The position numbers and the translations under genes were made by a program. The notes under the pieces are model-generated. The model saw only the letters and a program-made list of their open reading frames with translations. It was not told where the DNA came from and did no database searches. DNA of 31,131 nt from a virus. Lineage: Duplodnaviria > Heunggongvirae > Uroviricota > Caudoviricetes. Numbering within the stretch: position 1 is the stretch's first letter; every line of letters starts with the position of its first letter. The DNA is taken from positions 1 to 31,131 of the IMG/VR virus record IMGVR_UViG_3300045988_022899, one strand, 5' to 3'. Below, piece after piece: positions 757 through 30,611 of the stretch.

Positions 757-860
757 GTTAAATCTCCAGATAGTCGCAGCACCCGTTGCGCCGCATATGT
801 GGTTATTCTATTACCTGAAAAACCACATATGGATAGAAAGACTGTGAATATGAATAGATA

Positions 861-875
861 TTACCTTTCAGGTGA
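861..875. promoter_or_regulatory. Operator-like palindrome TTACCTTTCAGGTGA (one mismatch to the recurrent motif)
   Basis: Seen in sequence; lies in the divergent intergenic region between the tail fiber start and the LexA-boxed gene. Confidence 0.4.
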
Positions 876-912
876 TTTGCAAAACGTGCTGGATAGCAAA
901 CAAATTATTTGA

Positions 913-932
913 TACTGTATAAATATACAGTT
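913..932. promoter_or_regulatory. LexA (SOS) box TACTGTATAAATATACAGTT
   Basis: CTGT-N8-ACAG with an AT-rich spacer, close to the E. coli LexA consensus TACTGTATATATATACAGTA; 20 bp upstream of the ATG at 952. Confidence 0.8.
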
Positions 933-951
933 ATTGCATGGAGAAGATAAG

Positions 952-1209
952 ATGCAGCAGTATCACTATCCACTGGAAGACGGATTTACCGAAAGGATTC
1001 ACACGCCGGGAGGCGTCAGGTCACTGGTGGAGGGATCGCACTTGATGAAATTACTCCGGGATCTCGATAAGGATGGATTTAATGTCGATGGCCCACTTGC
1101 CGAACTGACTGCACTGATTAACTACGTCACCAGCTCACAGATGTCTATGCGGGATCTGCAAACACATCTCGACTATTGTGCCGAACAATTACGAAAACAA
1201 ACCCGGTAA
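952..1209 (+). CDS. Small antirepressor-like protein (paralog of the Ant C-terminal domain)
   Basis: ATG at 952 with GGAGA RBS (the track ORF starts at an upstream TTG). The 85-aa product aligns with the C-terminus of the 2355-3041 product (shared L..LL..L...G.DV.G...ELT....Y......M.RD.QTH..Y pattern). Confidence 0.7.
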   Translation: MQQYHYPLEDGFTERIHTPGGVRSLVEGSHLMKLLRDLDKDGFNVDGPLAELTALINYVTSSQMSMRDLQTHLDYCAEQLRKQTR

Positions 1210-1215
1210 ATTTAA

Positions 1216-1233
1216 AGGCCGCAAGAGCGGCCT
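1216..1233. terminator. GC-rich hairpin between convergent genes (possible bidirectional terminator)
   Basis: AGGCCGC-AAGA-GCGGCCT stem-loop sitting between the stop at 1209 and the stop at 1232. Confidence 0.45.
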
Positions 1234-1960
1234 ATCGTTTCGCTTTGTGCTCATCCCAGCACGTTTTGCACCATGCCATTAAGCCGTCCGCATTTTGATT
1301 ATTAGGGTAAAAGCTGGTTCGTTTTCTGCGGACATTACAAATTGGGCACCACTTCATATGGCGTGTATTCTTTGGGCCATCGAGACACCTTGCACACCAT
1401 TTAGTCAATCCATCTGGATTTTTTGACGATTTCCTGAATTTTTCATATGGAAGGTTTATTCTGCATCGCAAGCACTGCTTGCTACCACTTGAAACTCTGT
1501 TAGCTGATTCTTCTTTTGGCGGCGATACAGAAGGTATTCTTGCTGGCTCTGATATTGCCTGAGGTGCTTTTTTAGATGACTGAGACGATATGTCATCACC
1601 AGGGAATCTTCCATGATATGCCGGACGCGTTGACACTCCAGGTGGAATCTCAGCTGTAAACGGCTTTGGCTGAATCAGTTGCCTCTCTTTTGCTAACTCC
1701 TGCTGTTTATAATATGTCTGGATTACCGCACTATCATAAGCAGGAGGTGCGGAAATATTAGGCGCATTACCTCCAGTTTTTTGAAACTGAGTAGAGGTGT
1801 GTTCTATCACCTGTGTACGATTAATCGTTATCTCCCCATCTTCGGTCTTTATCGTTTTGTTATGATTAACGACCGTACGATCAGAGATCTTAGTCTTGTT
1901 CTGGTTGATAACGTAAATAATCACCGCAACCACACCAACAACTATCCAGAAAACTTCCAT
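1232..1960 (-). CDS. Membrane-anchored protein with C-terminal tandem Cys-rich (zinc-ribbon-like) repeats; function unknown
   Basis: ATG at 1960 with GAGGAA RBS. N-terminal hydrophobic helix (VFWIVVGVVAVIIYVI), Pro/Ser-rich linker, then two similar CxxC...DGL..WC..C units. Confidence 0.65.
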   Translation of the reverse strand: MEVFWIVVGVVAVIIYVINQNKTKISDRTVVNHNKTIKTEDGEITINRTQVIEHTSTQFQKTGGNAPNISAPPAYDSAVIQTYYKQQELAKERQLIQPKPFTAEIPPGVSTRPAYHGRFPGDDISSQSSKKAPQAISEPARIPSVSPPKEESANRVSSGSKQCLRCRINLPYEKFRKSSKNPDGLTKWCARCLDGPKNTRHMKWCPICNVRRKRTSFYPNNQNADGLMAWCKTCWDEHKAKR

Positions 1961-1980
1961 TGCTTTTCCTCACAATAACA

Positions 1981-1995
1981 TTACCTTAAAGGTAA
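1981..1995. promoter_or_regulatory. Operator palindrome TTACCTTAAAGGTAA
   Basis: Perfect 6-3-6 inverted repeat; identical copy at 3108-3122; a degenerate copy follows at about 2000-2013. Confidence 0.55.
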
Positions 1996-2073
1996 TATCT
2001 TGCTTTCAGGTGATCAAGCGTTAAACGCAATCAACCAAATACGGTTGATTTTAATGTTTCTTCGCGCTTATCA

Positions 2074-2088
2074 TTACCTTTACGGTAA
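2074..2088. promoter_or_regulatory. Operator palindrome TTACCTTTACGGTAA in the ant leader
   Basis: TTACC-N5-GGTAA motif, seen in sequence. Confidence 0.45.
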
Positions 2089-2354
2089 ATTTACATCGCA
2101 CTCCTCTTGTGCCATAGTAATCGGGCACTGGCAAAATCCAGTGCCGGGATTGGCGTCCCGGATTACTACAGAGGCACATATGCCGCATAAGCGGTTTTTT
2201 TATGTGTAAAGCGCACCTATTCTATGGTGGGCTGTGTGGGGGCACCGAAAGGTGCGCCGGGTCCTTTGTAGCCGGTTACGCCAACCCTGCACAGTTCACC
2301 ACCAACCGATTGGCGTCGGTAGTGGTGATTAACCTAACTACAAAGGTGATCACT

Positions 2355-3041
2355 ATGACTGCTAACGTAACCCCATCTGTTTTTCATTTTGAATCAGAAG
2401 CAACCATTCGAGCCATTGTTATTGATGGAAATCCTTGGTTTGTTGCCAAAGACGTTATTAAAGCTCTTCAACTGACAAACCCCACTATGTCAATAAAATC
2501 TCTTGATGATGATGAAAGGGCTAAATTTAACTTAGGCCGTCAAGGCGAAACCAATATTATCAACGAGTCAGGCCTCTACACACTGATCCTCCGCTGCCGC
2601 GATGCGGTGACACCAGGCACTATCCCCTACCGCTTTCGTAAATGGGTTACAGGTGAGGTTCTTCCTCAGATCCGCCGCACCGGAAGTTACATTAAAAACT
2701 CGCTCCCGCAGGAAGAACGCATAAAGATGGTTGCCGACCAGGTAGCCAACGCCACGGCGTCAGCAGTGATGCAGGCGATGAAGATAGAGAACAAAACCTA
2801 CAGTGCCCCACTGAAGCCCGGCTACCGCAGTCTGATTCATTCTCCGTCTGGTGTTCTCGGCCTGACGGAGAACTCACTGCTGATGAATCTGCTGAACCAG
2901 TTACAGGAAGACGGGCACGACGTATCGGGCGCGGCGGCGGAGTTGACCACCATGTTCTGCTACATCGTCGGTGTGAGCAAATGCCTGCGTGATATCCAGA
3001 CGCACGCGGAGTACATCAACGACAAGGCAGGGTTCTTCTGA
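2355..3041 (+). CDS. ant: Phage antirepressor (Bro-N domain N-terminus plus C-terminal antirepressor domain)
   Basis: ATG at 2355 with AAGGTGA RBS; the track ORF has a 51-codon upstream extension. N-terminus FHFESEATIRAIVIDGNPWFVAKDVIKAL...ESGLYTLILRCR...VLPQIRRTG matches the Bro-N/antirepressor pattern from memory. Confidence 0.8.
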   Translation: MTANVTPSVFHFESEATIRAIVIDGNPWFVAKDVIKALQLTNPTMSIKSLDDDERAKFNLGRQGETNIINESGLYTLILRCRDAVTPGTIPYRFRKWVTGEVLPQIRRTGSYIKNSLPQEERIKMVADQVANATASAVMQAMKIENKTYSAPLKPGYRSLIHSPSGVLGLTENSLLMNLLNQLQEDGHDVSGAAAELTTMFCYIVGVSKCLRDIQTHAEYINDKAGFF

Positions 3042-3107
3042 CGAGCGGCGGCACAGGGATGTGCCTTTAAAATAATCATTGGCGATGTGATGTAGATTCG
3101 CGTAATA

Positions 3108-3122
3108 TTACCTTAAAGGTAA
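3108..3122. promoter_or_regulatory. Operator palindrome TTACCTTAAAGGTAA
   Basis: Identical to the 1981-1995 site; 43 bp upstream of the ATG at 3165. Confidence 0.55.
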
Positions 3123-3164
3123 ACCTGTTTTTATTTTATACCTGTAACTTACCGGAGATTAAAG

Positions 3165-3491
3165 ATGACAAAACTTGGATTCGTGATGAGAGGTCCGGTA
3201 AGAAGCGGAACTCATGCAAAGCGTAGCAAGAGTCGTATTTTTACTGGTAAGGTTGTAGCACGTAAATCAGCTATTGGCTCGTTCAATAGTGAAAATGCGG
3301 CATTGCGCCATATTTTTATCAGCACAAAGCCAAGAGCATCCGCTGATGTGCATACAATGTCTATTCCTATCACAAAGAATATAAAGCGGATAAAAAAGCT
3401 CTCATCTGCAGAATCAAAAGAGATATCTTTCCGCCAGCTTAACTCATTAGAAACGCATATGAAGGAAGAGGAATTCGATGTTTTTGAGTGA
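3165..3491 (+). CDS. Small basic protein, first gene of a coupled pair (candidate antitoxin/partner)
   Basis: ATG at 3165 with GGAGA RBS; Lys/Arg-rich N-terminus and acidic C-terminal tail; its stop overlaps the downstream start by 14 nt. Confidence 0.55.
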   Translation: MTKLGFVMRGPVRSGTHAKRSKSRIFTGKVVARKSAIGSFNSENAALRHIFISTKPRASADVHTMSIPITKNIKRIKKLSSAESKEISFRQLNSLETHMKEEEFDVFE

Positions 3492-3990
3492 GTATAGCGG
3501 GAAGGTTATACCTACTGGTGAGTTTAAAACTGATGACTTTCTGATTTCGCTAAAAGATGCTTTTAAACAACACTGGCGTCATGGTCATCATCCTGATCTG
3601 GGAAAAGATACTCTTTTTGAAAGACCAGACGAAGTATTAGGCTTCCATCTCAGAAAGGTTCATGTCAATATTGGTGAATATGCATCATATTCATACTCAT
3701 GTACTGAACAGTGTTGGGATGAGTGGTCATATGGATTGATTGATGAACAAGGAAATTACAGGCCAAAACCAACCAGTAACGCATATCTCATATATGCAGT
3801 CAATGAAATAAGAGATGCAGCCTTACTAGCTTATTGGGACCCGCCCGCACACACCAAAGCTAACGCAAAAGTTTGGATGGATTCCGTATTGAATTTCACA
3901 AAATTATTTCATGAACGAACGAATACAGCCCCACTTAGTAGAAATGTTTATCCGTGGGATTATTCGTACAAATCCAAAAAGCCTGCATAG
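3478..3990 (+). CDS. YafO-like toxin-domain protein (putative ribosome-dependent mRNA interferase)
   Basis: ATG at 3478 with GGAAGAGG RBS. Motifs HPDLGKDTLF, LRKVHVNI and AALLAYWDPPAH resemble the YafO-family FGRD / HIHL / LLLAIL.P.H pattern as recalled; not database-verified. The locus is AT-rich. Confidence 0.45.
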   Translation: MFLSEYSGKVIPTGEFKTDDFLISLKDAFKQHWRHGHHPDLGKDTLFERPDEVLGFHLRKVHVNIGEYASYSYSCTEQCWDEWSYGLIDEQGNYRPKPTSNAYLIYAVNEIRDAALLAYWDPPAHTKANAKVWMDSVLNFTKLFHERTNTAPLSRNVYPWDYSYKSKKPA

Positions 3991-4757: not shown

Positions 4758-7232
4758 TTATTGCGGAGTGACATCCTGTGGTCGCCACCAGTATGTCTGG
4801 TTAAACTCTTTCTTCGAACGTTGCTCCATTTTACGTAAATAACCTGGTGAAAAATACTCCTGCATCTGGTTAAAGATCATGTGATCGAGAGCCGCCTTCA
4901 AGTACCAGAGATTCGCACCAGGCATCAAACCTTTCCCCAGCTTCACCAGATCACCACCAGTCTGCTCACTCTTCCCTTCCACAGCATTTAACGGTATGCC
5001 CTGAGCAATCTTCACTACATCATCAACCAGACCAGCTACCGGGCCAAGCATCGACGCCAGCGCGCCGCTCCCGTACCTAGTGTGGTCAGAGAAAAGAAAA
5101 TCACCGTACAACCCAGCCCCGCCACCTTTTAAAAATGCATTTATCCAGAATTTAACCATGTGGTCACCGGTCATTTCCTTTGGATTTCTCCCATTAATAA
5201 GATCAGTAATCTGCATGGAAAGAGCACCAAGCATGGTTGTGCTTGCTAAAAACGTTGCTATATATGCTGCACGCCCACCAGCAGACGGCATACCCATAGC
5301 GCGTGACCAGTGACGCATAACAACCGAGATAGGGAACGATTTAAACAGGAAAACACTTCTCGTTAATTCACCTTTCCATGTTCCACGCTGAAGACCAGAC
5401 CCTACGAACATCTGCTCACGTGCGCCCGGTGTAATAACAGCCATATCAACTTCTTCAGTTACGGCACCGAGCAGTTTACGCATTGCCTCAAATTTCACGC
5501 GTTCAGGCTCACCAAGATGTTTAACTGCTGAATCAGGGATACGCATAATGCTTTCCGGTGTCAGCATCGTATTATTACCGTTCCCCCAGTCCTCCTGTTG
5601 CGCCAGCTTCCATACGCTCCAGTCTGTGTCAGTAATCCCTTTACTTTTCAGGATACGAAAATCAGAGTCATCGAGGCTACGAAGGTCTGGTGTCCGTGAC
5701 ACTACTTCTCCCAGGCTTCCCATCATGGTTACGCCATAGGCGCGCTTGTGCGCATCTGACCATGCTGTAAGCCCACTGGCACGCATTACCGCCGTTGCCG
5801 CCCAACGAGACACAGACGGCCCCATATTATCCATCGCCCAGCGGTTAACGCTGCCAAGTAGAGATTCCATCGCCAGGCCAGCGCGGCGCGCCCGCGCAAG
5901 CTCAGTACGGTTCGTTGGGTCCATAGCTTCAAGCTGGTTGCGAAATAACTGGTTCATTGGAAGGTTGGTAACCTTCGCAGACAGATACATGGTTCCAAGA
6001 TCAGAGAACGATGACAGCAACGCGGATCCGAGTCTGCTGGCAACCAGCCAGTTGCGGATATTGTCAGACCATCGCGCGATGTGGGGATTCGCTACAGGCT
6101 GTGTTTTTCCGGAAATAAAGTTGTACAAGTTCTCTGTTTTGTTCGCCAGACGCTCGACGCTACCGGTTTTACTCGGGTTAGCTGTTGCCGTTTCTGCCTT
6201 AACCTGATCAAGAAGGGAGCGGAAAACATGATCGGGGTTTGGACCATATGTTTCCACCAGAGCAATATCTTTACTGATACCTTCCAGGTGACCGACCATG
6301 ATTTCCCATAGAGAGCGATCGCCATAAAGTTGCTGATATTGCAGATAGGAATCTGCATCTTTGAAATGTATCTGTCGTGATGCATTACCACGGTTAGCAC
6401 GTGCGCCGGAAATTCGCATTCCGGTATCAGTAAGCTTATTCAGCCCACCAGTAGCGATCGTGTTATAAGCCTCTCCAAGAAATGCAGACAACTCGGCATC
6501 GTTCATCAGTTGTCCATCGGCTCGGGTATAATATTTGCGATCCAGCTTACCTATAACATCGCTAACCCACTTATCCTTTGATACCGCCCCAACCTTTTCC
6601 ATAGAATGATGTTGAGGGATCCCCCAGTTTTCGAGATAGCCAATGTCCCCACCAGCATCATTAAACCGGCGGCGCAGCAGCTCTGTAACTTCTCTCCACG
6701 CCTTAGCACCTTTTCTTGCTTTAGCATTGCCAGTATTTTGCCCCCGCATTTCATATACCAGGTCACGTACGCCCGCTTCATCTTCAAACAGACCAAAAAA
6801 GCGAGGATCAACTGCTTCGAATGCCTCCTGCAATTGACTCAATGCATAATCACGAGTGGCTTTTGTTCTGGACTCAACAGAGAGGAAATTCGATTTACCG
6901 TCTGCATTAAAAGCAATAGTACGGTTAAGAGCGCCAAGTTTCCCATCAGACCCTTGATAGCTATTGATAAATTTATCCAATCTCTGACGCGCGGCTATAG
7001 TGAGAGCCACACGACGTTTCTTTAATGCCGCTTCTCGCTGTAATTCTTCAGATGCCAATTGTGCTGCTCGATATAGCCGCTCTGATTCGGAAAGTTGTCG
7101 CCACGACATCGGGTCATCACGAGCAATGGAGCGCATATTTCGATAAATGCGGTCTTCAATGTTCTGTATTTCTCGCGCCGTTAAAGTGCGCTGCGCCGCC
7201 TGCTGGACCGCTTGTATACATTCCTGTCTCAT
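4758..7232 (-). CDS. Large internal virion (ejection/core) protein, 824 aa
   Basis: Last large gene of the coupled virion operon downstream of the gp14-like gene; called by position and size. Confidence 0.5.
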   Translation of the reverse strand: MRQECIQAVQQAAQRTLTAREIQNIEDRIYRNMRSIARDDPMSWRQLSESERLYRAAQLASEELQREAALKKRRVALTIAARQRLDKFINSYQGSDGKLGALNRTIAFNADGKSNFLSVESRTKATRDYALSQLQEAFEAVDPRFFGLFEDEAGVRDLVYEMRGQNTGNAKARKGAKAWREVTELLRRRFNDAGGDIGYLENWGIPQHHSMEKVGAVSKDKWVSDVIGKLDRKYYTRADGQLMNDAELSAFLGEAYNTIATGGLNKLTDTGMRISGARANRGNASRQIHFKDADSYLQYQQLYGDRSLWEIMVGHLEGISKDIALVETYGPNPDHVFRSLLDQVKAETATANPSKTGSVERLANKTENLYNFISGKTQPVANPHIARWSDNIRNWLVASRLGSALLSSFSDLGTMYLSAKVTNLPMNQLFRNQLEAMDPTNRTELARARRAGLAMESLLGSVNRWAMDNMGPSVSRWAATAVMRASGLTAWSDAHKRAYGVTMMGSLGEVVSRTPDLRSLDDSDFRILKSKGITDTDWSVWKLAQQEDWGNGNNTMLTPESIMRIPDSAVKHLGEPERVKFEAMRKLLGAVTEEVDMAVITPGAREQMFVGSGLQRGTWKGELTRSVFLFKSFPISVVMRHWSRAMGMPSAGGRAAYIATFLASTTMLGALSMQITDLINGRNPKEMTGDHMVKFWINAFLKGGGAGLYGDFLFSDHTRYGSGALASMLGPVAGLVDDVVKIAQGIPLNAVEGKSEQTGGDLVKLGKGLMPGANLWYLKAALDHMIFNQMQEYFSPGYLRKMEQRSKKEFNQTYWWRPQDVTPQ

Positions 7233-21163: not shown

Positions 21164-21240
21164 GTGGCATTAGCTCAGTTGGACAGAGCAACCGCCTTCT
21201 AAGCGGTTTGTCGCAGGTTCGAATCCTGCATGCCACGCCA
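21164..21240 (+). tRNA. tRNA-Arg (anticodon UCU)
   Basis: Hand-folded cloverleaf: 7-bp acceptor stem GTGGCAT/ATGCCAC, anticodon stem ACCGC/GCGGT with loop CTTCTAA, T-arm GCAGG-TTCGAAT-CCTGC, 3' GCCA; resembles E. coli argU. Confidence 0.85.
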
Positions 21241-29774: not shown

Positions 29775-29837
29775 TCACCCATAAGGTAACAAAAATCAAG
29801 GATAGTTACCCATGAGGTGCATTTACCTGTTGGGTAA
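29775..29837. promoter_or_regulatory. Tripartite operator region with divergent promoters between the cro-like and repressor genes
   Basis: Three sites seen in sequence: TCACCCATAAGGTAA (29775-29789), TTACCCATGAGGTGC (29806-29820), TTACCTGTTGGGTAA (29823-29837). Confidence 0.6.
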
Positions 29838-29892: not shown

Positions 29893-30477
29893 ATGAAAAG
29901 TATCCAGGACGTCCGCAGGCAAAATCTCAACGACTTGATCGACCGTGAATTCAATGGTGTTCAGACGCGGATGGCTGAAAAACTTGGAACTCAGGCAAAT
30001 CTGGTAAACCGCTGGGCTCTTGGTAAGAAGGTTATCGGCGATCAGGTTGCGCGAAAAATTGAAGCTGCCGCCAATAAACCCCGTAACTGGCTTGATATCG
30101 ATCGCTCGCTTTCTCAGGAAGGTTTTCAGCCTGTCGGCCCAAGCGACATTGGTCAGCTGGCAGCTCACAACCTGGAACGCTGGATGAGTGAAAGCCGCGA
30201 CCTTTCAACTCAGGGAAAACTTCACCGCGCATCCGGCGTCGCCCAGGTGACAATAAGCCGCCTGTTAAACAATGAGGTCAGCGTTTCCATTTCCACCCTG
30301 GAGAATGTTGCATCTGCATTCGGGCGTCACGGATATGAACTACTGATTCATCCGCATGACCCTGCAACTATCAACTATGACCGCTCGCGCTACGCATTGT
30401 TACCTGAAACAGAGAAGGCAAAGATCGAAAGTTACATTGAATTTGTCATCAACCAGAACGAAAAAAACAAACAATAA
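29893..30477 (+). CDS. Prophage repressor, tandem HTH (XRE-type) domains, no S24 peptidase domain
   Basis: 194 aa; two HTH-like segments (QTRMAEKLGTQANLVNRW and SGVAQVTISRLLNNEVSVSISTL); no Ala-Gly/Ser-Lys autocleavage module; no recognisable SD before the ATG. Confidence 0.65.
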   Translation: MKSIQDVRRQNLNDLIDREFNGVQTRMAEKLGTQANLVNRWALGKKVIGDQVARKIEAAANKPRNWLDIDRSLSQEGFQPVGPSDIGQLAAHNLERWMSESRDLSTQGKLHRASGVAQVTISRLLNNEVSVSISTLENVASAFGRHGYELLIHPHDPATINYDRSRYALLPETEKAKIESYIEFVINQNEKNKQ

Positions 30478-30534: not shown

Positions 30535-30611
30535 TTACCTAACGGGTAATTTTTTTAACTCATATCTATTGACATCAAACCAGATACGCATAATTATTAC
30601 CTCAACGGTAA
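30535..30611 (+). promoter_or_regulatory. PL-like rightward promoter flanked by two operators
   Basis: TTACCTAACGGGTAA (30535-30549), -35 TTGACA (30569-30574), AT-rich -10 near 30591-30597, TTACCTCAACGGTAA (30597-30611) over the predicted start site. Confidence 0.55.

What the first reader, a model, noticed from the sequence alone, without database searches (positions are those of the whole stretch)
913..1209. Near-consensus LexA box directly upstream of a short paralog of the antirepressor C-terminal domain
TACTGTATAAATATACAGTT (CTGT-N8-ACAG) sits 20 bp upstream of an 85-aa ORF whose product aligns with the C-terminus of the Bro-N antirepressor at 2355-3041. The prophage repressor at 29893-30477 has two HTH domains and no S24 peptidase module, so it cannot be RecA-cleaved. 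Together this predicts SOS induction through a LexA-controlled mini-antirepressor, comparable to Gifsy-type Salmonella prophages and coliphage 186 Tum, with the full-length Ant under separate operator control as a possible feed-forward step.
Basis: partly seen in the sequence, partly recalled or inferred. Interest (0 to 1): 0.65.

Follow-up and report, generated by a model that had tools for sequence, protein, structure and literature searches.

The report
LexA-controlled small antirepressor, already characterised

Summary
TACTGTATAAATATACAGTT lies at 913-932, 19 nt before the ATG at 952, and matches 18 of 20 consensus LexA-box positions. It is the only such site in the window, with 0 expected by chance.

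The 85-aa product is 87% identical to the Ant antirepressor of Salmonella phage SPC32H (PDB 5D50 chain E, E=1.4e-46). The repressor at 29893-30477 is a 42%-identical homologue of SPC32H Rep (5D50 chain A) and has no S24 peptidase domain.

The window is an epsilon15-like (Uetakevirus) E. coli phage. The box sits at the orthologous position. The SPC32N record differs from SPC32H at the ACAG arm of this box; from memory of the abstract, this is the published mutation that makes Ant constitutive. So the main finding is already known (Kim & Ryu 2013; Kim et al. 2016), although E. coli records still call the gene hypothetical.

The paralogy with the Bro-N protein is real (41% over 78 aa, E=2e-16). 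That second gene lies behind isrK and C4 antisense RNAs. The C4 loop covaries with the gene's ribosome-binding site, and a Rep-type operator abuts the cassette promoter. Related prophages swap the N-terminal domain (Bro-N, AntA, Rha) and keep the Ant-like C-terminus. This two-antirepressor layout appears undescribed, and its role is untested.

The parts
861..875 (.). Rep-operator-like palindrome TTACCTTTCAGGTGA (1 mismatch to TTACC-N5-GGTAA) between the tail-fibre gene and ant
   Evidence: The palindrome is conserved at this position in 9 epsilon15-like phages, and is perfect in SPC32H, epsilon15, ZX5, Tyrion and the Klebsiella phages. The epsilon15 RefSeq record annotates a 17-bp 'repressor; lysogeny' binding site, with an adjacent IHF site, in the same tail-fibre/ant intergenic interval; I did not read its sequence.
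890..918 (+). Candidate ant promoter TGGATA (890-895) - N17 - TACTGT (913-918); the -10 hexamer is the left arm of the LexA box (inferred)
   Evidence: It is the only -35/-10 candidate conserved at the same alignment columns in 6 of 9 orthologous regions. It is weak, at 7 of 12 consensus positions.
913..932 (.). LexA (SOS) box TACTGTATAAATATACAGTT
   Evidence: It is positionally orthologous to the SPC32H box, and SPC32N differs from SPC32H only at the ACAG arm (ACAG to AAAG). It is conserved across Salmonella, E. coli and Enterobacter relatives.
952..1209 (+). ant: 85-aa small antirepressor, orthologue of SPC32H Ant (epsilon15 gp19)
   Evidence: PDB 5D50 chain E 'Anti-repressor protein', E=1.4e-46; 87% identity. 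GenBank KC911856 annotates the syntenic gene as ant. It matches PHROG 450 and no Pfam or NCBIfam family.
1216..1233 (.). GC-rich hairpin AGGCCGCTCTTGCGGCCT between convergent ant and the 242-aa gene; probable bidirectional terminator
1981..1995 (.). Exact Rep-type operator TTACCTTAAAGGTAA, just upstream of the start (1960) of the minus-strand 242-aa gene
2074..2088 (.). Exact Rep-type operator TTACCTTTACGGTAA, 1 nt upstream of the -35 hexamer of the isrK promoter
   Evidence: The same operator+1nt+TTTACA geometry occurs in ZX5, TL-2011b, Tyrion, a Klebsiella phage, L018 and L019; phiV10 keeps the operator but has ATA in place of TTTACA. The operator is absent from the VT2-Sakai and SfV cassettes.
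2090..2118 (+). Promoter-like site TTTACA-N17-CATAGT (TG-extended), placing the start near 2125, the 5' end of isrK (inferred)
   Evidence: It aligns with TTGACG...TATATT in VT2-Sakai.
2125..2201 (+). isrK-family sRNA with its terminator
   Evidence: Rfam RF01394, 76.8 bits against a gathering score of 50.
2220..2306 (+). C4-family antisense RNA; the hairpin-2 loop CCUUUGUAG is at 2263-2271
   Evidence: Rfam RF01695, 79.5 bits against a gathering score of 45.
2338..2346 (+). CUACAAAGG, the C4 loop target overlapping the Shine-Dalgarno of the Bro-N ant gene
   Evidence: Read directly from the sequence. Loop and target change together in relatives: CCUUUUAG/CUAAAAGG, CCACUUAG/CUAAGUGG, CCGUUUAG/CUAAGCGG.
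2355..3041 (+). Second antirepressor: Bro-N domain (aa 18-104) fused to an Ant-like C-terminal domain (aa 147-224, nt 2793-3026)
   Evidence: 5D50_E matches residues 147-223, E=1.1e-13. Residues from about 75 onward are identical to ZX5 ORF4, whose overexpression lowered lysogeny (PMC9782041).
29775..29837 (.). Three operator sites (29775, 29806, 29823) in the intergenic region between the cro-position gene and rep
   Evidence: SPC32H has three at the syntenic place.
29893..30477 (+). rep: 194-aa prophage repressor without an S24 peptidase domain, homologue of SPC32H Rep
   Evidence: 5D50_A, E=4e-42; 42% identity; Pfam gives HTH_3 only.
30535..30611 (.). Two exact operators (30535-30549, 30597-30611) flanking a TTGACA promoter-like site downstream of rep, ahead of the early genes

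Best explanation
The region 913-1209 is the SOS input module of an epsilon15-like (Uetakevirus) temperate phage. It is the orthologue of the SPC32H ant gene with its LexA operator.

Proposed mechanism:
1. In a lysogen, host LexA binds the box at 913-932. The box overlaps the weak ant promoter (probable -10 at 913-918), so ant stays silent.
2. DNA damage activates RecA, LexA cleaves itself, and the 85-aa Ant is made.
3. Ant binds the phage repressor Rep (29893-30477), which has no autocleavage domain, and removes it from its TTACC-N5-GGTAA operators.
4. The early and late operons are derepressed and the prophage is induced.

Shown here: the box, the orthology of Ant and Rep to the crystallised pair, the synteny, and the operator set.

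Taken from the literature on SPC32H: LexA control and Ant-Rep binding.

Inferred for this phage: that its Ant still binds its 42%-identical Rep, and the exact promoter.

The Bro-N::Ant-like protein at 2355-3041 is most likely a second, accessory antirepressor aimed at the same Rep. A C4 antisense RNA gates its translation, and its promoter carries a Rep-type operator.
For: - Box statistics: 18 of 20 to consensus, unique in the window, 0 expected.
- Ant is 87% identical to SPC32H Ant, crystallised with Rep as PDB 5D50. Rep matches 5D50_A at E=4e-42.
- Synteny is the same in every relative examined. ant is divergent from the tail-fibre/tailspike gene in SPC32H, epsilon15, phiV10, TL-2011b, ZX5, Tyrion and Klebsiella phages.
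- SPC32H and SPC32N differ in this region only by ACAG to AAAG in the box. SPC32H and phiv142-3 each carry a single TACTGT-N8-ACAGT in their whole genome, at ant.
- The box is conserved while flanking bases vary.
- Rep has no S24 domain, and phiv142-3 has only one annotated repressor.
- ZX5 has an identical box and a 98.8%-identical Ant. The ZX5 paper states that its Rep has the same sequence as those of phiV10 and phiv142-3. ZX5 is mitomycin C-inducible, with spontaneous release of about 10^7 PFU/ml rising to 10^9 (PMC9782041).
- The reviews PMC7380047 and PMC9638917 summarise the SPC32H mechanism.
- The operator occurs 10 times exactly, against 0.01 expected. Three sites lie between cro and rep.
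Against: - Rep here is only 42% identical to SPC32H Rep while Ant is 87% identical. Binding of this Ant to this Rep is assumed, not shown.
- The conserved promoter candidate is weak, at 7 of 12, and I could not read the two primary SPC32H papers, which are not held. What I know of the mapped promoter comes from memory of the abstract.
- Klebsiella relatives have ATGT instead of CTGT in one arm, so LexA control may be weaker there.
- In ZX5 the only antirepressor tested experimentally was the Bro-N protein, not the small one.
Confidence: 0.88

Rival explanations
1. The Bro-N::Ant-like protein is the principal antirepressor. The 85-aa protein is an accessory modulator, for example a subunit that mixes into or competes with the larger protein's Ant-like domain, rather than the SOS trigger.
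For: - In ZX5 the Bro-N protein (C-terminal ~150 aa identical to the one here) lowered prophage titres from 10^9 to 10^6 and cut rep mRNA by 75% when overexpressed (PMC9782041).
- The two proteins share a homologous domain. According to PMC9638917, that domain is a tetramer in SPC32H, so hetero-oligomers are conceivable.
Against: - SPC32H and epsilon15 have no Bro-N gene next to ant, and the whole SPC32H record lists only the small ant as an antirepressor. GenBank and the PDB name that small gene the antirepressor.
- phiV10 carries a frameshift inside the Ant-like domain of its Bro-N gene.
- The LexA box is at the small gene, not at the Bro-N gene.
Confidence: 0.07
2. The LexA box controls the divergent tail-fibre gene or is a chance palindrome, and the small ORF is expressed independently of SOS.
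For: - The box lies in a 195-bp divergent intergenic region that also serves the tail-fibre gene (start at 756).
- No strong sigma-70 promoter was found by the simple scan.
Against: - The box is 19 nt from the ant ATG and 157 nt from the tail-fibre start.
- 0 matches are expected by chance.
- It is conserved in position relative to ant in three host genera.
- SPC32N differs from SPC32H at the ACAG arm of the box. From memory of the Kim & Ryu abstract, this variant expresses Ant constitutively.
Confidence: 0.03

Closest known systems
SPC32H Ant / Rep / LexA switch (Salmonella Uetakevirus; Kim & Ryu 2013 J Virol 87:11775; Kim et al. 2016 PNAS 113:E2480; PDB 5D50, 5D4Z)
   Same: - Ant is an orthologue (87% identity).
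- The genome position is the same, divergent from the tailspike/tail-fibre gene.
- The LexA box is at the same place, including the base that differs in SPC32N.
- Rep is homologous, has two domains and lacks S24.
- The TTACC-N5-GGTAA operator core occurs at syntenic sites.
   Different: - Rep is only 42% identical.
- The host is E. coli.
- This phage also carries a roughly 3.5-kb insert after ant (1232 to about 4750). It holds a second, Bro-N-fused Ant paralogue behind isrK/C4 RNAs, plus cargo genes. SPC32H lacks all of this.
- E. coli records annotate the gene as hypothetical.
Gifsy-1/-3 GfoA/GfhA and coliphage 186 Tum (LexA-controlled antirepressors; Lemire et al. 2011, PMC3121763)
   Same: The logic is the same. 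The repressor is not cleaved, and a small antirepressor is encoded outside the immunity region under direct LexA control.
   Different: - No detectable sequence relationship was found. Ant hits no DinI/Tum-type or any other Pfam family.
- There is no dinI partner gene.
- According to PMC9638917, Ant is a tetramer that splits a Rep tetramer, rather than the dimer-dimer complexes proposed for Gifsy.
P1/P7 immI (c4 antisense RNA - ant) and Gifsy-1 isrK-orf45-anrP locus (PMC4825925)
   Same: This applies to the second gene only. isrK and C4 RNAs lie directly upstream of an antirepressor gene, and a C4 loop is complementary to a ribosome-binding site downstream on the same transcript.
   Different: - The C4 loop targets the Shine-Dalgarno of the ant gene itself. 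No icd/orf45-type leader ORF fits in the 48 nt between C4 and the ATG.
- The cassette carries an epsilon15-type operator and an epsilon15-type Ant C-terminal domain. Both are absent from the VT2-Sakai cassette, and the SfV cassette also lacks the operator.
P22 Ant and other Bro-N / AntA / Rha 'antirepressor' proteins
   Same: The architecture is modular. An N-terminal Bro-N, AntA or Rha domain is followed by a variable C-terminal domain.
   Different: - Here the C-terminal domain can be identified as the stand-alone SPC32H-type Ant fold.
- Only 62 clusters at 50% identity carry it among 1.84 billion proteins.
- All three fusion types examined (Bro-N, AntA, Rha) sit in epsilon15-like prophages.

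Membership tests
SPC32H-type small antirepressor (Ant) of epsilon15-like phages | Sequence homology to SPC32H Ant over the full length | tested here: met
   5D50_E, E=1.4e-46, residues 2-84 against 3-85; 87% identity.
SPC32H-type small antirepressor (Ant) of epsilon15-like phages | Gene lies outside the immunity region, divergent from the tailspike/tail-fibre gene | tested here: met
SPC32H-type small antirepressor (Ant) of epsilon15-like phages | LexA box overlapping the ant promoter at the orthologous position | tested here: met
   The alignment with SPC32H and SPC32N places the box in the same columns, and the SPC32N change is in its ACAG arm. The promoter overlap itself is inferred.
SPC32H-type small antirepressor (Ant) of epsilon15-like phages | Cognate repressor of the SPC32H Rep family, lacking an S24 autocleavage domain | tested here: met
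   5D50_A, E=4e-42; 42% identity; no Peptidase_S24.
SPC32H-type small antirepressor (Ant) of epsilon15-like phages | Physical binding of Ant to Rep, and release of Rep from DNA | not testable with these tools
   This needs pull-down or EMSA. The only indirect support is the mitomycin C inducibility of ZX5 (PMC9782041).
186 Tum / DinI-fused antirepressors | DinI-like domain, or homology to Tum | tested here: not met
   The Pfam scan of the 85-aa protein gives no DinI hit and no hit above threshold. NCBIfam also gives none.
Gifsy GfoA/GfhA antirepressors | Sequence homology to GfoA/GfhA, and a dinI-antirepressor operon | not tested
   GfoA/GfhA sequences were not fetched. No dinI-like gene precedes ant here: the box is followed directly by ant.
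C4 (P1 immI-type) antisense-controlled antirepressor cassette (second gene, 2125-3041) | C4 RNA upstream of ant on the same strand | tested here: met
   RF01695 79.5 bits and RF01394 76.8 bits.
C4 (P1 immI-type) antisense-controlled antirepressor cassette (second gene, 2125-3041) | C4 loop complementary to a downstream ribosome-binding site, maintained by compensatory change | tested here: met
   Four distinct loop/target pairs are perfectly complementary or have one G.U: CCUUUGUAG/CUACAAAGG, CCUUUUAG/CUAAAAGG, CCACUUAG/CUAAGUGG and CCGUUUAG/CUAAGCGG. L019 pairs the CCUUUGUAG loop with CUACGAAGG through one G.U.
C4 (P1 immI-type) antisense-controlled antirepressor cassette (second gene, 2125-3041) | Leader ORF (icd / orf45) translationally coupled to ant | tested here: not met
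   Only 48 nt separate C4 (end 2306) from the ATG at 2355, and the C4 target overlaps ant's own Shine-Dalgarno.

The most novel reading that the evidence does not exclude
Many epsilon15-like prophages may run a two-stage antirepressor circuit that has not been described.

Stage 1 is the LexA-controlled small Ant. Stage 2 is a cassette (Rep-type operator, P_isrK, isrK, C4, X::Ant-like domain) in the slot just downstream. In this cassette the N-terminal domain is exchangeable (Bro-N, AntA, Rha). The C-terminal domain is always a paralogue of the small Ant and so would target the same Rep.

Once small Ant has removed Rep, the cassette would be derepressed. Alternatively, it would lose Rep-dependent C4 production. 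Either way, the larger Ant would lock induction in after LexA recovers, turning a reversible SOS input into commitment.

A corollary is that SPC32H Ant is not a separate class. It would be the free-standing repressor-recognition domain of classical modular antirepressors.
Probability: 0.35. Interest if true: 0.55.

Novelty: already known. Interest (0 to 1): 0.27.

Why it matters
The main finding adds no new biology. It re-derives from raw sequence a switch that has been shown genetically and structurally in a sister phage.

There is a practical point for annotation. The gene is still called 'hypothetical protein' in E. coli phage records and by PGAP. At least 80% of the ant-to-Bro-N region (760-3200) is present in 115 of 5426 complete E. 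coli genomes. The ZX5 study of a phage with an identical LexA box overlooked the small ant and tested only the Bro-N protein. Annotation and the interpretation of induction experiments in these phages could be corrected, including for STEC-associated phages such as phiV10 and TL-2011b.

The side result could explain why some of these phages carry two antirepressors. It also assigns a likely function, repressor recognition, to one family of antirepressor C-terminal domains.

Tried and rejected
- I tried to read the two primary SPC32H papers by DOI and by PMC id (PMC3807360, PMC4983836), and the epsilon15 genome paper (PMC2698709). None is held. Their content is cited through reviews, GenBank and PDB annotation, and from memory of the abstracts, and is marked as such.
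- The sigma-70 scan found no promoter before ant at its thresholds. A conservation-based scan gave one weak candidate.
- Whole-RNA duplex folding of C4 against the leader did not beat shuffled targets. It ignores C4's own structure, so I used direct loop/target tabulation across relatives instead.
- The word-indexed protein search returned only close stand-alone homologues. The exhaustive profile search was needed to find the fusions.
- I considered and rejected membership of the Tum/DinI family, since no domain hit was found.
- I considered the other two CTGT-N8-ACAG sites as LexA boxes and rejected them for poor 20-mer matches.
- I did not compute a LexA heterology index, because I do not hold the reference matrix.

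Full report
**What is there**

The window is an epsilon15-like temperate podophage of E. coli (genus Uetakevirus). The region 760-1300 is 95-99% identical to phiV10, TL-2011b, phiv142-3, ZX5 and other phages.

TACTGTATAAATATACAGTT lies at 913-932. It has two mismatches to the 20-bp LexA consensus. It is the only site within three mismatches in 31 kb, and none was found in 100 shuffles. A GGAG lies at 940-943 and the ATG at 952. The ORF ends at 1209 and encodes 85 aa.

The product aligns without gaps to residues 147-224 of the Bro-N protein encoded at 2355-3041, with 41% identity over 78 aa and E=2e-16. The repressor at 29893-30477 has an HTH_3 domain at residues 106-147, an N-terminal HTH-like region, and no S24 peptidase.

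**What it is**

The 85-aa protein matches one entry in the Protein Data Bank. That entry is chain E of 5D50, named 'Anti-repressor protein', at E=1.4e-46. The repressor matches chain A of the same entry, named 'Repressor', at E=4e-42.

These are Ant and Rep of Salmonella phage SPC32H. Its GenBank record annotates the syntenic gene as ant, divergent from the tailspike gene exactly as here. Identity is 87% for Ant and 42% for Rep.

Aligning the intergenic regions puts the window's box in the same columns as the SPC32H box. SPC32H and its sibling SPC32N differ there by a single base, ACAG to AAAG. From my memory of the Kim & Ryu 2013 abstract, a single change in the LexA site is what makes Ant constitutive in SPC32N. 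The citation itself is verified, and the review PMC7380047 cites it for LexA-controlled antirepression.

According to PMC9638917, Rep binds DNA as a tetramer, and tetrameric Ant binds two Rep dimers and breaks the tetramer.

The box is conserved at the same distance from ant in epsilon15, Tyrion, BUCT554, phiV10 and TL-2011b, while neighbouring bases vary. Klebsiella relatives have ATGT in one arm. The complete genomes of SPC32H and phiv142-3 each contain one TACTGT-N8-ACAGT, at ant.

**Mechanism**

The steps below combine results from this window with published work on SPC32H.

1. LexA occupies 913-932 in the lysogen. The only -35/-10 candidate conserved across orthologues is TGGATA (890-895), a 17-nt spacer, then TACTGT (913-918). 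Its -10 hexamer is the left arm of the box. This promoter assignment is inferred.
2. SOS signalling removes LexA and Ant is made.
3. Ant sequesters Rep, which cannot autocleave.
4. Rep leaves its operators.

The operators are very probably the TTACC-N5-GGTAA palindromes. There are 10 exact copies against 0.01 expected. All are intergenic. Three lie between the cro-position gene and rep, and two flank a TTGACA promoter-like site after rep. SPC32H has them at syntenic sites. The epsilon15 RefSeq record annotates a 17-bp 'repressor; lysogeny' binding site in the corresponding interval upstream of gp19, its ant orthologue.

Support from a close relative comes from ZX5. It has an identical LexA box and a 98.8%-identical Ant. 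The ZX5 paper states that its Rep has the same sequence as those of phiV10 and phiv142-3. ZX5 reaches 10^9 PFU/ml after mitomycin C, against about 10^7 spontaneously (PMC9782041).

One thing is not shown for this phage: that its Ant binds its own Rep, which is only 42% identical to the crystallised one.

**The second antirepressor**

The evidence gives a fuller picture.

Rfam finds an isrK-family sRNA at 2125-2201 and a C4 antisense RNA at 2220-2306, immediately before the gene. The loop of C4 hairpin 2, CCUUUGUAG at 2263-2271, is complementary to CUACAAAGG at 2338-2346. That target overlaps the gene's Shine-Dalgarno.

Loop and target change together in relatives:
- ZX5, TL-2011b and phiV10 have CCUUUUAG/CUAAAAGG.
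- Prophage L018 has CCACUUAG/CUAAGUGG.
- A Klebsiella phage has CCGUUUAG/CUAAGCGG, with one G.U pair.
- L019 has CCUUUGUAG/CUACGAAGG, with one G.U pair.

This is a P1 immI-type or Gifsy-1 isrK-type cassette. Here, however, C4 targets the ant ribosome-binding site itself, and there is no leader ORF.

An exact Rep-type operator at 2074-2088 ends one base before the -35 hexamer (TTTACA, 2090-2095) of the promoter that would start isrK at about 2125. This operator+1nt+TTTACA geometry is kept in six other epsilon15-like elements from several genera. phiV10 keeps the operator but has ATA in place of TTTACA. The operator is absent from the homologous isrK-C4 cassettes of VT2-Sakai and SfV, and the VT2-Sakai Ant has an unrelated C-terminus.

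With the operator centred near -44, Rep could either occlude or stimulate this promoter. I cannot decide which.

**Distribution of the Ant-like domain**

An exhaustive profile search of 1.84 billion representative proteins found only 62 clusters with the Ant domain. Some are stand-alone proteins of 80-95 aa. In others the domain is the C-terminus of longer proteins. The N-termini of those longer proteins are Bro-N, AntA, Rha or ORF6N domains.

The AntA and Rha fusions I looked up lie in epsilon15-like prophages, in the same slot. Each sits directly after a small ant carrying a LexA-type box (perfect in L018, with ATGT in one arm in L019) and behind isrK and C4.

SPC32H and epsilon15 lack the cassette. 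phiV10 has a frameshift within the Ant-like domain. The cassette is therefore accessory.

In ZX5 the Bro-N protein (C-terminal ~150 aa identical to the one here) reduced lysogeny when overexpressed. That paper did not recognise the small ant.

In ZX5 and L018 no terminator separates the small ant from the cassette. In this window a convergent 242-aa gene and a hairpin at 1216-1233 intervene.

**Comparison and novelty**

By homology, synteny, operator position and partner repressor, this is a member of the SPC32H Ant/Rep/LexA system. It works like Gifsy GfoA/GfhA and 186 Tum but is not detectably related to them.

The main finding is therefore already known.

To my knowledge the conserved two-antirepressor architecture has not been described, nor has the identification of SPC32H-type Ant as the free-standing form of a shuffled C-terminal module. 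I rate the two-stage commitment reading at about 0.35 probability.

**Verdict**

The feature is real and correctly interpreted, but it is not new. Interest is 0.27.

Noticed in passing
window 2125-2306 and 2338-2346: isrK and C4 antisense RNAs lie directly upstream of the Bro-N antirepressor gene. The C4 hairpin-2 loop pairs with the gene's Shine-Dalgarno and covaries with it across at least five relatives. ZX5 annotates part of this RNA region as an 'ash family protein' CDS.
   Followed up: yes
window 861, 1981, 2074, 3108, 20827, 23960/23978, 27430, 27492, 29438, 29775-29837, 30535, 30597: A dispersed set of TTACC-N5-GGTAA palindromes (10 exact, 0.01 expected) sits in front of almost every transcription unit, including the terminase/late genes and the cargo genes. 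This suggests that Rep represses many promoters directly rather than only an early pair. The same pattern is present in SPC32H.
   Followed up: partly
window 952-1209 versus 29893-30477, compared with SPC32H (L005): Ant is 87% identical between the E. coli and Salmonella phages, but Rep is only 42% identical. Either Ant recognises a small conserved surface, or it can act across different immunity types, as Gifsy antirepressors do.
   Followed up: no
window 1232-1960 (minus strand): A 242-aa protein has an N-terminal hydrophobic segment and two C-terminal zinc-ribbon-like repeats, with weak PHROG hits to endonuclease VII and Lar-like families and a sub-threshold Pfam Stc1 hit. It is inserted between ant and the isrK cassette. 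It is absent from ZX5, phiV10 and SPC32H, and is only a misc_feature in TL-2011b. An exact operator lies just upstream of its start.
   Followed up: no
window 3165-3491 and 3478-3990: Two overlapping plus-strand genes of 108 aa and 170 aa follow an operator at 3108. The second has a weak, sub-threshold YafO-toxin Pfam hit (E=9.5e-4). They may be a toxin-antitoxin-like cargo pair.
   Followed up: no
L002 (phiV10) 4763-5347: The Bro-N antirepressor gene of phiV10 is frameshifted inside the Ant-like C-terminal domain. It ends ...LLMNRTTGMMYQARRRS, so phiV10 probably relies on the small Ant alone.
   Followed up: partly
L010-L012 and L016 (Klebsiella phages), L019 9555-9580: In Klebsiella and more distant relatives the box upstream of the small ant reads ATGT-N8-ACAG, not CTGT-N8-ACAG. 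LexA control may be weakened or retuned there.
   Followed up: no
window 21164-21240: A tRNA-Arg (anticodon TCT) lies on the plus strand between the terminase and portal regions, as in SPC32H and phiv142-3.
   Followed up: no
L006 (ZX5) and L018 9680-9760: In ZX5-type genomes the small ant stop codon runs straight into the isrK promoter region with no terminator. SOS-induced ant transcripts could therefore read into the cassette. In this window the inserted 242-aa gene and a hairpin at 1216-1233 uncouple them.
   Followed up: partly
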